Assembly: GCA_028688325.1 (NCBI GenBank)
Contig: JAQTYI010000001.1
Span: 246,994-300,619 of the forward strand
Direction: 5' to 3'
Length of the DNA stretch: 53,626 bases
Origin: Candidatus Portnoybacteria bacterium
GTDB taxonomy: Bacteria > Patescibacteriota > Minisyncoccia > Portnoybacterales > GWB1-42-6
Shown: piece by piece, positions 36,323-37,252 of the stretch
Numbering within the stretch: position 1 is the first letter of the stretch
Layout: every line of letters begins with the position of its first letter
Position numbers and translations under genes: made by a program
The notes under the pieces: model-generated
What the model was told of the DNA's origin: nothing
Database searches by the model: none
Seen by the model: the letters and a program-made list of their open reading frames with translations, nothing else

Positions 36323-37252
36323 ATGTTTTCAAAAAACAAAATTATAAAATATCGTGATAAAAATAAAACCAAACCCAACAAGCTGATGGGTCAGAATTTT
36401 TTGCGCGATAAAAATATTCTAAACAAAATTATCGCGGCGGCCAATCTAACGGCGGGGGACAGCGTGCTGGAAGTGGGGCCCGGCGAAGGCGTTCTGACCC
36501 GCGAACTGGCCAGATATACCGGCCGAGTGATCGCGGTGGAAAAAGATAAAAACCTGGCCGCGCGGTTGAAAGAAGAATTTAAAAACAACAAAAATGTGGA
36601 AATCATTGAAAGTGATATTTTGGAATTTCTAAAAACCGCAAACTATCAACTACCGGCTGCCTACAAAGTTGTTGCCAACATTCCGTATTATCTGACATCG
36701 CACCTAATCCGTTTATTGCTGGAATCGGAAAATCCGCCAACGGAAATAGTTTTGCTTATCCAAAAAGAAGTGGCCGAAAGAATCTGCGCGAGCCCGCCGG
36801 AAATGTCGCTACTGGCCGTGTCGGTGCAATTTTACGCCGAACCGAAGATCATCGCTTCCGTTTCCAAAAGAGCGTTCTGGCCCCAGCCCAAAGTTAATTC
36901 GGCGATAATAAGAATTACACCTCACCAATGGTGTCATTCCCGCCCCGTATCGCAGTACGGGGTAAACTCCAGCGGGGATCCAGGGCCTGGATCCCGGGTC
37001 CCTCCTTCGCCTACGGCTACTGATGGGCGCAGCAAGCCCGGGATGACAAAAATAGAGGAAGATGATTTCTTTCGCGTCGCCCGCGCCGGCTTTTCCCATC
37101 CGCGCAAACAGCTCCTCGGCAATTTGAGCGGAGGACTGCGAATGGAAAAAGATAAAATAATCGGAGCCCTGCAAACGGCGGGGCTCAAGCCGCAGCAAAG
37201 AGCCGAGACATTAAGCGTAAAAGATTGGATAAAATTAGCAGCGTCGCTCTAA
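36323..37252 (+). CDS. rsmA: 16S rRNA (adenine1518/1519-N6)-dimethyltransferase RsmA/KsgA carrying an in-frame ~39-aa insert
   Basis: GQNFLRD, VLEVGPGEGVLT, NIPYYLTS and FWPQPKVNSAIIRITP...FSHPRKQL. The palindromic element is inserted at the junction between the methyltransferase domain and the C-terminal domain. Confidence 0.9.
   Translation: MFSKNKIIKYRDKNKTKPNKLMGQNFLRDKNILNKIIAAANLTAGDSVLEVGPGEGVLTRELARYTGRVIAVEKDKNLAARLKEEFKNNKNVEIIESDILEFLKTANYQLPAAYKVVANIPYYLTSHLIRLLLESENPPTEIVLLIQKEVAERICASPPEMSLLAVSVQFYAEPKIIASVSKRAFWPQPKVNSAIIRITPHQWCHSRPVSQYGVNSSGDPGPGSRVPPSPTATDGRSKPGMTKIEEDDFFRVARAGFSHPRKQLLGNLSGGLRMEKDKIIGALQTAGLKPQQRAETLSVKDWIKLAASL
36932..37049 (+). mobile_element. Palindromic MITE-like element inserted in-frame within rsmA
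   Basis: TGTCATTCCCGCCCCGTATCGCAGTACGGGG...ATCCAGGGCCTGGATCCCGGGTC[33-bp extra]AAGCCCGGGATGACAAA. It is translated as CHSRPVSQYGVNSSGDPGPGSRV...KPGMTK. Confidence 0.75.

What the first reader, a model, noticed from the sequence alone, without database searches (positions are those of the whole stretch)
36932..37049. Multi-hairpin palindromic element inserted in-frame inside rsmA (KsgA)
An ~118-bp element runs from TGTCATTCCCG to CCCGGGATGACA. It contains nested hairpins (CCCCGTA/TACGGGG, ATCCAGG/CCTGGAT, CCCGGG-n5-CCCGGG). It interrupts rsmA between the conserved ...PKVNSAIIRITPHQ segment and ...FSHPRKQL without breaking the frame, and adds ~39 residues (CHSRPVSQYGVNSSGDPGPGSRVPPSPTATDGRSKPGMTK) at the domain junction. 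Related copies lie at 1964-2049 (intergenic) and 53370-53439 (inside another gene). Within the CCCGGG hairpin this copy also carries a 33-bp extra segment not seen in the other two. The situation parallels the Rickettsia palindromic elements that survive inside ORFs. The encoded WIPAFAGMT / KPGMTK-type peptides resemble element-derived peptides I recall from hypothetical proteins of many bacteria.
Basis: partly seen in the sequence, partly recalled or inferred. Interest (0 to 1): 0.7.

Follow-up and report, generated by a model that had tools for sequence, protein, structure and literature searches.

The report
Hairpin repeat element translated inside rsmA
A 117-base mobile-looking DNA repeat, made of two inward-facing copies of the hairpin motif that small Ssn nucleases recognise in Neisseria and many other bacteria, sits in frame in the essential rRNA methyltransferase gene rsmA of a Patescibacteria genome, where it probably encodes only a floppy 39-residue surface loop.

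Summary
A GC-rich element, TGTCAT...ATGACA (36932-37048, 117 nt = 39 codons), interrupts rsmA in frame at the linker between its two domains. Related copies lie at 1965-2047 (intergenic) and 53370-53438 (in frame in a Wzy_C-type gene).

The element belongs to a published family. The left end of copy C matches the Neisseria NTS/dRS3 consensus at 27 of 28 bases, and the shared right end fits the published Ssn-related motif (SRM). Each copy is two convergent SRM hairpins. The right-end SRM (30/30) forms the left end of GIY-YIG ssn gene units in an alphaproteobacterium and a Moraniibacteriota genome, both bounded by TGTCAT...ATGACA. So the element looks like a gene-less miniature of an SRM-ssn-SRM unit.

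In 113 loci from many phyla, close SRM pairs were convergent 34 times and divergent 0 times. None of 54 composites has a target-site duplication. The extra 33 nt in the rsmA copy is a second mini-hairpin nested in an SRM loop.

AlphaFold2 keeps the KsgA fold and leaves the insert disordered. Of the 120 best RsmA homologues, 42 carry an insert of at least 8 residues at this linker, from several repeat families.

This is a new member of a known kind. Its in-frame habit in Patescibacteria was not in the literature I could search. No ssn gene lies in the 72 kb examined. Mobilisation by Ssn is inferred.

The parts
36932..37048 (+). Composite element copy B: 117 nt, 39 codons, read as CHSRPVSQYGVNSSGDPGPGSRVPPSPTATDGRSKPGMT inside rsmA.
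   Evidence: Frame 0 is open and the length is a multiple of 3.
36932..36984 (+). Left arm of copy B: an NTS-like hairpin, TGTCATTCCCG...CGGGGATCCAGG. Its loop is expanded by the sub-hairpin CCCCGTATCGCAGTACGGGG (36943-36962) plus TAAACTCCAG (36963-36972).
   Evidence: Alignment with copy C, which has the compact NTS form. The same long-loop module occurs in L115 and L116 with a further NTS nested in the sub-hairpin loop.
36986..37048 (-). Right arm of copy B. On the minus strand it reads TGTCATCCCGGGCTTG[33 nt]ACCCGGGATCCAGG, an SRM hairpin whose loop is interrupted.
   Evidence: The uninterrupted form in copies A and C matches the published SRM regex. It is identical over 30/30 bases to the SRM at the left end of the ssn units in L017 and L038.
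37000..37032 (+). Nested 33-nt mini-hairpin, CCCTCCTTCGCCTACGGCTACTGATGGGCGCAG (11 codons).
   Evidence: It is absent from copies A and C. A relative identical at 26 of 33 bases is nested in the loop of a different SRM in L055.
36323..37252 (+). rsmA (ksgA) CDS, 309 aa. The element inserts between residues 203 and 243.
   Evidence: Pfam RrnaAD, E = 1e-54. PDB phmmer. Called as a 309-aa gene in GCA_028710785.1. AF2 and Foldseek match KsgA 6ift with TM 0.82.
1965..2047 (+). Copy A: 83 nt, intergenic, long-loop left arm and intact right SRM.
53370..53438 (+). Copy C: 69 nt, 23 codons, both SRMs intact. The left arm is the NTS sequence TGTCATTCCCGCGAAGGCGGGAATCCAG. It is translated on the minus strand as CHPGLDPGSRLIRAWIPAFAGMT.
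   Evidence: ssDNA fold z = -5.6.
52308..53626 (-). Wzy_C-type (O-antigen ligase-like) membrane protein gene that hosts copy C. It runs off the end of the window.
   Evidence: Pfam PF04932, E = 1.8e-17. Called as a 450-aa gene in the source contig.

Best explanation
The 117-bp sequence is a non-coding, non-autonomous repeat element of the NTS/dRS3 'Ssn-related motif' (SRM) family. It consists of two SRM hairpins in convergent orientation, so that the conserved GTCAT heads face outward and act as terminal inverted repeats (TGTCAT...ATGACA). This is the same outline as SRM-ssn-SRM units, in which a roughly 100-aa GIY-YIG single-strand-specific nuclease gene (ssn) sits between the hairpins. The element is therefore best read as a gene-less miniature of such a unit.

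Such elements multiply within genomes as whole units and leave no target-site duplication. Their hairpin loops accept further small hairpin elements. The rsmA copy has picked up a 30-nt module in its left loop and a 33-nt mini-hairpin in its right loop.

In compact Patescibacteria genomes many copies land in genes. Only copies that keep the reading frame, lack stop codons and fall in permissive loops should survive. Here the copy lies in the linker between the Rossmann-fold domain and the C-terminal helical domain of RsmA. It is presumably transcribed and translated as a 39-residue disordered surface loop with no role in the enzyme.

Shown here: family membership by sequence, the architecture, the orientation rule, the absence of a duplication, the nesting, the intact ORF and fold, insert-free orthologues, and recurrent inserts at the same site. 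Inferred: mobilisation in trans by an Ssn nuclease acting on single-stranded DNA, translation of the insert, and its neutrality.
For: - **Family by sequence.** The left arm of copy C matches the NTS consensus CGTCATTCCCGCGMAVGCGGGAATCYRG at 27 of 28 bases. The only hits to the published SRM regex in 53.6 kb are the ends of these elements.
- **Link to ssn.** The right-arm SRM is identical over 30/30 bases to the SRM at the left end of ssn genes (Pfam GIY-YIG, E = 1e-14) in L017 (Alphaproteobacteria) and L038 (Ca. Moraniibacteriota). Both units are bounded by TGTCAT...ATGACA. L101 (Ca. Vogelbacteria) has an ssn gene flanked by a different SRM type.
- **Distribution.** The 30-nt right arm occurs exactly in more than 113 loci of Patescibacteria, Alpha- and Betaproteobacteria, Omnitrophota, Nitrospinales, Binatia, Ignavibacteriaceae and others.
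- **Orientation.** SRM pairs 600 nt apart or less are convergent 34 times and divergent 0 times.
- **Unit of copying.** Near-identical composites, spacer included, occur at several loci within single genomes, for example L018/L052/L083 and L055/L084/L102/L103.
- **No duplication.** None of 54 composites has a flanking direct repeat longer than 2 nt.
- **Nesting in loops.**
- **Coding context.** Both in-gene window copies are multiples of 3 (117 and 69 nt), as is the nested 33 nt. The intergenic copy is 83 nt. Among Patescibacteria composites, 8 of 10 spanned by an ORF are multiples of 3, against 6 of 15 not spanned.
- **Protein.** The AF2 model has pLDDT above 90 in both domains and below 50 with coil for residues 211-238. 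Foldseek matches KsgA 6ift with TM 0.82.
- **Orthologues.** Insert-free forms exist. Of the 120 best homologues, 42 have an insert of 8 aa or more at this linker and 39 at the loop after GDILxF, from several repeat families.
Against: - No ssn homologue and no transposase lie in the window or in 19 kb of extra flank, 72 kb of the 789-kb contig in all. A mobilising enzyme in this genome is therefore unproven.
- Neither arm of the rsmA copy itself matches the SRM regex, because both loops are expanded. This copy may be inert.
- Ssn has been shown only to bind and cut ssDNA and to modulate transformation. Transposition has never been demonstrated (PMC11893778).
- The window, L114 and L121 have their elements at the same boundaries, to within 1 nt, but with different internal sequence. 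The event could be an old insertion remodelled in place rather than a recent hop.
- The excess of multiples of 3 among ORF-spanned copies is only a trend (one-sided Fisher p about 0.06, my calculation).
- No near-identical rsmA allele without the element was found, so the empty site could not be seen.
Confidence: 0.72

Rival explanations
1. The element was inserted once in an ancestor of this RsmA clade and has since evolved in place. Its interior has been repeatedly overwritten by recombination or gene conversion with other genomic elements that share the TGTCAT/ATGACA ends, and by nested insertions and deletions. On this view the window copy is vertically inherited and not a recent transposition.
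For: - The window, L114 (70% identical protein, syntenic) and L121 have the same left boundary, 2 codons after the His of ITPH. They also share the right boundary ATGACA|AA(A) to within 1 nt, although the interiors belong to different families.
- P0003 and P0007 are about 85% identical outside the inserts. They share the first-loop insert, with a deletion in P0007, but differ at the junction.
Against: - Inserts of an unrelated family (PLYKRGIEGDL...PPFTKEG, with no GTCAT ends) occupy the same linker in many orthologues, and several close orthologues are empty. The site has therefore been hit independently.
- L115 and L116 have different left boundaries.
Confidence: 0.3
2. The SRM hairpins are kept for a host function. 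They would be Ssn cleavage sites that restrict or shape the uptake and recombination of single-stranded DNA, as shown for NTS in Neisseria. Their presence in rsmA and the Wzy gene would reflect that role rather than selfish spread.
For: - SsnA cuts NTS-bearing ssDNA and lowers transformation with NTS-containing DNA (PMC11893778).
- The 25 specified bases of the right arm are exactly conserved across phyla, which suggests constraint by a recognising protein.
Against: - Both arms of the rsmA copy are disrupted by loop insertions.
- Inserts at the site differ in family between orthologues and are absent from others.
- In N. meningitidis only 2% of NTS lie inside genes.
- No ssn gene was found nearby.
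Confidence: 0.12
3. The elements are mobilised by a different enzyme. Candidates are an IS200/IS605-type or RAYT Y1 transposase, as for REP/BIME, or an IS110/Piv-type recombinase, as for the neisserial filamentous phages that integrate into dRS3. The association with ssn would then be incidental.
For: - The absence of a target-site duplication and the hairpin ends resemble IS200/IS605 and REP/BIME biology.
- dRS3 is a known target of a phage-encoded recombinase (PMC1797815).
Against: - ssn genes sit exactly between the same outward-facing hairpins, with identical 30-nt SRMs, in two phyla.
- The published genome-wide association is with ssn: 71% of ssn neighbourhoods carry SRMs.
- No Y1 or IS110 gene was found in the 72 kb or in the loci inspected.
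Confidence: 0.1
4. The insert is an assembly artefact: a repeat-induced chimera in the metagenome-assembled genome. The real rsmA would lack it.
For: Short GC-rich repeats can confuse assemblers, and the source is a MAG (GCA_028710785.1).
Against: - The insert preserves the frame exactly, with no stop codon.
- The identical protein is recorded on two contigs.
- Independent assemblies of orthologues from other samples carry comparable elements at the same site.
Confidence: 0.03

Closest known systems
NTS / dRS3 and Ssn-related motifs (SRM) with the GIY-YIG single-strand nuclease Ssn (Neisseria, Wolbachia, Sphingomonads and others; PMC11893778)
   Same: The left arm of copy C matches the NTS consensus at 27 of 28 bases, and its ends fit the SRM regex. 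The conserved GTCAT head, the hairpin and the ATCC tail are all present. Identical SRMs flank ssn genes in other genomes, including a Patescibacteria one.
   Different: This is a gene-less convergent pair, not a solitary repeat or an ssn-flanking pair. It lies inside genes in frame, whereas NTS are reported inside genes in only 2% of cases in N. meningitidis. The host is a Patescibacteria genome, a group the paper does not mention. Both hairpins of the rsmA copy have expanded loops. No ssn gene was found in the 72 kb examined.
Neisserial intergenic mosaic elements (NIME: dRS3-RS-dRS3 units; PMC1797815)
   Same: Short units bounded by ATTCCC-N8-GGGAAT-type inverted hairpin repeats enclose variable spacers of 19-214 bp. 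Their composition is mosaic and modular.
   Different: NIMEs are intergenic arrays and were described as specific to Neisseria. The copies here are isolated single units, two of three are inside coding sequence, and the right arm is a CCCGGG variant rather than ATTCCC.
Rickettsia palindromic elements (RPE)
   Same: Both are small palindromic repeats that survive in frame inside protein-coding genes, including essential ones, as extra surface segments. The behaviour is the same.
   Different: Sequence relationship to the RPE families was not tested here. RPEs are defined within Rickettsia. The Ssn paper lists Rickettsia among SRM-rich genera but does not equate SRMs with RPEs.
REP / BIME elements with RAYT (IS200/IS605-like Y1 transposases)
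   Same: Both are hairpin repeats with an oriented conserved head. Both pair in inverted orientation, lack a target-site duplication, and flank their cognate enzyme gene.
   Different: The associated enzyme is a GIY-YIG nuclease, not an HUH/Y1 transposase. The head motif is different. REPs are extragenic by definition.
Classical bacterial MITEs (for example Correia/CREE, Nezha)
   Same: Small size, terminal inverted repeats, no coding capacity, many copies, and occasional in-frame gene insertions.
   Different: There is no target-site duplication in any of 54 composites. The presumed parent is not a DDE-transposase insertion sequence.

Membership tests
NTS / Ssn-related motif (SRM) repeats | Match to the NTS consensus CGTCATTCCCGCGMAVGCGGGAATCYRG, with 1 mismatch allowed as in the paper | tested here: met
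   The left arm of copy C (53370-53397) differs only at the first base, T for C. In the rsmA copy the same arm has a 30-nt expanded loop and does not match.
NTS / Ssn-related motif (SRM) repeats | Match to the degenerate SRM pattern HGTCWYN(0-2)YYVSBRHN(0-5)WNVSBRGN(0-2)RNCYNB | tested here: met
   The window has three hits, all at element ends: 2019-2047(-), 53370-53397(+) and 53410-53438(-). Neither arm of the rsmA copy matches, because both loops are interrupted. That copy's membership rests on its alignment to copies A and C.
NTS / Ssn-related motif (SRM) repeats | Predicted hairpin as single-stranded DNA | tested here: met
   With DNA parameters, copy C folds into three hairpins closed by a terminal stem, with z = -5.6 and -5.2 on the two strands. 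Copy B gives z = -2.3 and -2.1.
NTS / Ssn-related motif (SRM) repeats | Physical association with an ssn (GIY-YIG, cd10448-type) gene | tested here: inconclusive
   The identical 30-nt SRM flanks ssn genes in L017 and L038. No ssn lies in the window or in 19 kb of flanks. The remaining roughly 717 kb of the contig could not be read.
NTS / Ssn-related motif (SRM) repeats | Bound and cut by the cognate Ssn as ssDNA, on one strand only | not testable with these tools
   This needs a biochemical assay.
Classical MITE | Terminal inverted repeats, small size and no ORF | tested here: met
   The ends are TGTCAT(Y)CC...GG(R)ATGACA.
Classical MITE | Target-site duplication flanking the element | tested here: not met
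   Of 54 composites, 42 have no flanking direct repeat, 9 have 1 nt and 3 have 2 nt, which is what chance gives.
Rickettsia palindromic elements | Sequence similarity to an RPE family consensus | not tested
Only the in-frame behaviour is shared.
REP / BIME | Association with a RAYT (Y1/HUH) transposase gene and an extragenic location | tested here: not met
   Two of the three window copies are intragenic. The gene found between identical hairpins elsewhere is a GIY-YIG nuclease. No Y1 gene appears in the annotated neighbourhoods.
RsmA/KsgA 16S rRNA dimethyltransferase (host gene) | RrnaAD domain, KsgA two-domain fold and conserved motifs intact | tested here: met
   Pfam PF00398, E = 1e-54. 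PDB phmmer, E = 4e-42. AF2 pTM 0.81 and Foldseek match to 6ift with TM 0.82. Synteny UvrD-RsmA-spermine-synthase-like is conserved.

The most novel reading that the evidence does not exclude
The SRM pairs are true miniature transposons of a so far undemonstrated class: hairpin-ended elements moved as single-stranded DNA by a roughly 100-aa GIY-YIG nuclease (Ssn). They would move without target duplication and with a preference for exposed hairpin loops. In the gene-dense Patescibacteria they would be a major, ongoing source of new surface loops in core proteins; 35% of the sampled RsmA orthologues carry a repeat-derived insert at one linker.
Probability: 0.3. Interest if true: 0.75.

Novelty: new member of a known kind. 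Interest (0 to 1): 0.45.

Why it matters
- **Link to a characterised enzyme family.** The result ties a curious in-frame insert in an essential gene to a repeat family and enzyme family characterised only recently (NTS/SRM and Ssn). It extends that family to Patescibacteria.
- **Testable transposition model.** The Ssn paper raised the idea that NTS-ssnA-NTS units resemble insertion sequences. This work adds concrete architecture-level evidence: gene-less miniatures with the same ends, a 34:0 orientation rule, no target duplication, and nesting in hairpin loops.
- **Annotation and phylogeny.** Many odd GC-rich peptide motifs in Patescibacteria proteins (CHSREGGNP, WIPAFAGMT, KPGMT and similar) are translated repeat DNA, not conserved protein features. 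This bears on annotation, alignment and phylogenetics of these lineages.
- **Permissive sites in RsmA/KsgA.** Two loops of the enzyme, the domain linker and the loop after GDILxF, tolerate 20-90 extra residues.

Tried and rejected
- **Rfam, gathering thresholds, whole window.** Only six tRNAs were found, and no RNA family at the element.
- **Peptide searches for the insert.** The word-index search found no candidate. The exhaustive HMMER search of 1.84 billion representatives gave only two low-complexity hits. A 41-residue query is too short, so neither search says anything about how many proteins carry such peptides.
- **Search for a near-identical rsmA without the element.** The metagenome scan gave a best hit of only 59% identity. 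The empty site and exact pre-insertion sequence remain undefined.
- **Viral contigs.** The right-arm SRM occurs in a single viral contig. There is no sign of a phage vector.
- **ssn or a transposase near the element.** A regex and a tblastn search of the window and two 10-kb extensions found nothing. The Pfam lists of called genes show none either.
- **Literature.** No paper in the held library links palindromic elements or MITEs with Patescibacteria/CPR. There is no follow-up on Ssn as a transposase.
- **Rejected readings.**
  - An intein or intron: at 117 nt it is too small, it has no matching family, and the frame is open.
  - A conserved lineage-specific domain: the peptide is not conserved among orthologues and is modelled as disordered.
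Full report
**1. What is in the sequence**

The window is part of contig JAQTTM010000001.1 (788,852 bp) of the metagenome-assembled genome GCA_028710785.1. Its best protein matches come from Patescibacteria.

At 36932-37048 there is a 117-nt stretch with 65% G+C, in a window that averages 48%. 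It runs TGTCATTCCCG...CCCGGGATGACA. It lies inside the ORF 36323-37252, which the source annotation calls as a 309-aa gene and Pfam identifies as RrnaAD (E = 1e-54).

A phmmer search against PDB splits the protein into two matched parts. These correspond to B. subtilis KsgA residues 26-209 and 214-284, with about 39 unmatched residues between them. The element is exactly 39 codons and its frame 0 has no stop codon.

Two related copies exist:
- **Copy A, 1965-2047 (83 nt).** It is intergenic and ends 10 nt before the ATG at 2058.
- **Copy C, 53370-53438 (69 nt, 23 codons).** It lies in frame in a Wzy_C-type membrane protein gene on the minus strand.

The three copies share an identical 30-nt right end. 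The terminal 11-mer is over-represented: 9 matches against 2.8 expected, and 0 of 100 shuffles reach 9. The rsmA copy has a 33-nt segment (37000-37032) that the other two lack. The only corrections are that the element is 117 nt, not 118, and that the final K of the quoted peptide belongs to the host.

**2. What family it is**

A full-text search for the terminal sequence led to PMC11893778. That paper defines the Neisseria Transformation Sequence (NTS), CGTCATTCCCGCGMAVGCGGGAATCYRG, which contains the classical dRS3 repeat. It also defines a degenerate 'Ssn-related motif' (SRM). These hairpins are bound and cut, only as single-stranded DNA and only on one strand, by SsnA, a 94-aa GIY-YIG nuclease. 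The ssn genes are often bracketed by the motifs, in many phyla.

The left arm of copy C, TGTCATTCCCGCGAAGGCGGGAATCCAG, matches the NTS consensus at 27 of 28 bases. I ran the published SRM pattern over the window. It returned only three hits, all at ends of these elements: 2019-2047(-), 53370-53397(+) and 53410-53438(-).

The right arm read on the minus strand, TGTCATCCCGGGCTTGACCCGGGATCCAGG, is itself an SRM. Each element is thus two SRM hairpins pointing at each other, with the conserved GTCAT heads facing outward. In copies A and B the left hairpin has a loop of about 30 nt (sub-hairpin CCCCGTATC..GTACGGGG plus TAAACTCCAG). In copy B the right hairpin loop also carries the 33-nt segment.

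**3. Link to ssn genes**

The hits span:
- Patescibacteria: Moranii-, Andersen-, Azam-, Vogel-, Doudna-, Falkow- and Gottesmanbacteria, Saccharibacteria, Parcubacteria.
- Alphaproteobacteria: Parvibaculum, Sphingomonas, Rickettsiales.
- Betaproteobacteria: Ramlibacter, Rhodoferax, Polaromonas.
- Other groups: Omnitrophota, Nitrospinales, Binatia, Ignavibacteriaceae, Bdellovibrionales and more.

In L017 (an alphaproteobacterial MAG) the same SRM lies at 1435-1464 and its mirror image at 1846-1875. Between them is a 100-aa ORF that is a GIY-YIG protein (E = 1e-14).

In L038 (Ca. Moraniibacteriota) a 58%-identical ssn gene follows the same 30-nt SRM. It is closed by CCTGGATCCCTGCTTTCGCAGGGATGACA. 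L101 (Ca. Vogelbacteria) has an ssn gene flanked by a different GTCAT...ATC hairpin type. Ssn homologues of 95-100 aa, 65-75% identical to one another, are recorded from several Patescibacteria lineages and from other phyla.

The window element therefore has the same termini and the same outward-facing orientation as SRM-ssn-SRM units, without the gene. The relationship resembles that of a MITE to its parent insertion sequence.

**4. Properties of the composite elements**

- **Orientation.** In the 113 loci, SRM hits lying within 600 nt of each other were convergent 34 times and divergent 0 times. Gaps were 2-383 nt, and the two longest hold ssn or its remnant.
- **Copied as units.** Near-identical composites, spacer included, recur at different loci within one genome, for example L018/L052/L083 and L055/L084/L102/L103. 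The whole pair is therefore the unit that is copied.
- **No target-site duplication.** Of 54 composites, 42 have no flanking direct repeat, 9 have 1 nt and 3 have 2 nt. The element is not a classical DDE-type MITE. In this respect it resembles IS200/IS605-REP biology, a comparison the Ssn paper also makes.
- **Nesting in hairpin loops.**
  - The 33-nt segment of copy B has a relative, identical at 26 of 33 bases, in the loop of a different SRM in L055.
  - L115 and L116 carry a complete NTS inside the loop of the CCCCGTATC sub-hairpin.
  - Several Saccharibacteria copies and L115 carry a 24-26-nt insert in the NTS loop.

**5. Behaviour in coding sequence**

The two intragenic window copies (117 and 69 nt) and the nested 33 nt are all multiples of three. 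The intergenic copy is not.

Among 25 Patescibacteria composites, 10 are spanned by a long ORF, and 8 of these 10 are multiples of three. Of the 15 not spanned, 6 are multiples of three. This is a trend only (one-sided Fisher p about 0.06, my calculation). Ten of 25 is far above the 2% of NTS inside genes reported for N. meningitidis.

An AlphaFold2 model of the RsmA protein, built with 36 orthologues, has mean pLDDT 85.5 and pTM 0.81. Both domains score above 90. Residues 211-238, within the insert at 204-242, score below 50 and are coil. They lie between the last strand of the methyltransferase domain and the first helix of the C-terminal domain. Foldseek finds B. subtilis KsgA (6ift) with TM 0.82.

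**6. Orthologues**

Orthologues P0012, P0013, P0015, P0016 and P0026 have no insert at the linker.

Among the 120 best homologues:

| Site | Homologues with an insert of at least 8 aa |
|---|---|
| Domain linker (this site) | 42 |
| Loop after GDILxF | 39 |
| After QRIC | 3 |

The inserts come from several repeat families:
- CHSREGGNP.../...WIPGQARDD and VIPAKAGIQ, which are NTS-type.
- CHPERSEGS...AQND.
- PLYKRGIEGDL...PPFTKEG.
- LRQGFGGQA.

DNA of four orthologues confirms that the inserts are GTCAT...ATGAC-ended elements.

The window, its closest relative L114 (70% identity, syntenic) and L121 have the same left boundary, and their right boundaries agree to within 1 nt. Their interiors belong to different families. 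P0003 and P0007 are about 85% identical outside the inserts and also differ at this site. I cannot decide between two readings: an old insertion remodelled in place by recombination among elements with shared ends, or repeated hits on one permissive site. Unrelated element families at the same linker, together with empty alleles, show that at least some hits were independent.

**7. Mechanism and confidence**

The best-supported reading is a selfish, gene-less SRM pair tolerated as a disordered linker loop. The filter on frame, stop codons and position is imposed by selection.

- **Shown:** family membership by sequence, architecture, orientation rule, absence of a target-site duplication, nesting, intact ORF and fold, and recurrent inserts at the same site.
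- **Inferred:** mobilisation in trans by an Ssn nuclease on single-stranded DNA. No ssn gene and no transposase lie in the 72 kb I could read. Ssn has not been shown to transpose anything. Both hairpins of the rsmA copy are interrupted, so that copy may be inert.

The rival readings are set out separately: in-place evolution of an ancestral insert, a host function as Ssn cleavage sites, a different mobilising enzyme, and an assembly artefact.

**8. Comparison with known systems and novelty**

The element is a member of the NTS/dRS3-SRM family by sequence. In outline it resembles a single dRS3-RS-dRS3 unit of the neisserial NIMEs (PMC1797815). It behaves like the Rickettsia palindromic elements.

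I did not find three things in the literature available here: its presence in Patescibacteria, the gene-less convergent-pair form with the same ends as ssn units, and its frequent in-frame residence in core genes. I rate it a new member of a known kind, of moderate interest.

Noticed in passing
window 24244-24311: A second palindromic repeat family, TTCCCCCTTTTCGTAAAGGGGGATTAAGGGGGAT / ATCCTCCCTAACCCTCCTTTACCAAAAGGAGGG. It is the DNA behind the PLYKRGIEGDL...PPFTKEG-type peptides inserted at the RsmA linker in many orthologues. It has no GTCAT ends.
   Followed up: partly
window 5911-5960 and 23245-23272 (inverted): A third small repeat, CTCCTCCGCTAAAGCTCCGACGGGCAAG, followed at 5941-5960 by AGCTACGGCGGGCAAGC. 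It resembles the 33-nt segment nested in the rsmA element and the LRQGFGGQA-type peptides inserted after QRIC in some RsmA orthologues.
   Followed up: partly
window 36193-36298 and 4277-4350: A 74-nt AT-rich repeat with an internal palindrome (CAAATTTCAAA / TTTGAAATTTG). It is present as two overlapping copies in the uvrD-rsmA spacer directly upstream of rsmA, and once in the infB-rbfA spacer. It may be a promoter- or terminator-associated intergenic repeat.
   Followed up: no
window 2620-2721 and 4754-4855: A 102-nt AT-rich intergenic repeat, 98% identical between the two copies, with 44-nt inverted arms (AATGACTAATTCCCAATGACAAATGACC...). It lies upstream of infB and between rbfA and a DHH-family gene. 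It looks like another MITE-like family.
   Followed up: no
window 49663-49925 and 50581-50843: A perfect 263-nt direct duplication, 918 nt apart, inside two adjacent ORFs (49567-50472 and 50479-51153). These lie downstream of a type IV secretion-like cluster (PrgI, TraC-like, VirB4/TraG-like ATPase). The ORFs may be recently duplicated paralogues, or the duplication may be an assembly artefact.
   Followed up: no
window 1965-2047: The intergenic copy A ends 10 nt upstream of the start codon of a DUF4446 gene (2058-2585). It could affect that gene's transcription or translation initiation.
   Followed up: no
L101 7453-7486 and 7791-7873 (Ca. Vogelbacteria): An ssn gene is flanked by a different GTCAT...ATC hairpin type (GTCATTGCGAGGAGTACTCGACGAAGCAATC). 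The downstream side has a convergent pair of such hairpins. This suggests distinct Ssn-hairpin pairs within Patescibacteria.
   Followed up: partly
L119 17441-20459 (about 7 kb beyond the window's right end): The genes rnpA-rpmH / dnaA-dnaN-dciA lie just outside the window, so the window is close to the presumed replication origin.
   Followed up: no
P0055 (RsmA orthologue, 434 aa): One orthologue carries a 154-aa C-terminal extension with DUF559/MTES_1575 (endonuclease-like) domains. In L115 a separate DUF559 gene sits directly downstream of rsmA.
   Followed up: no
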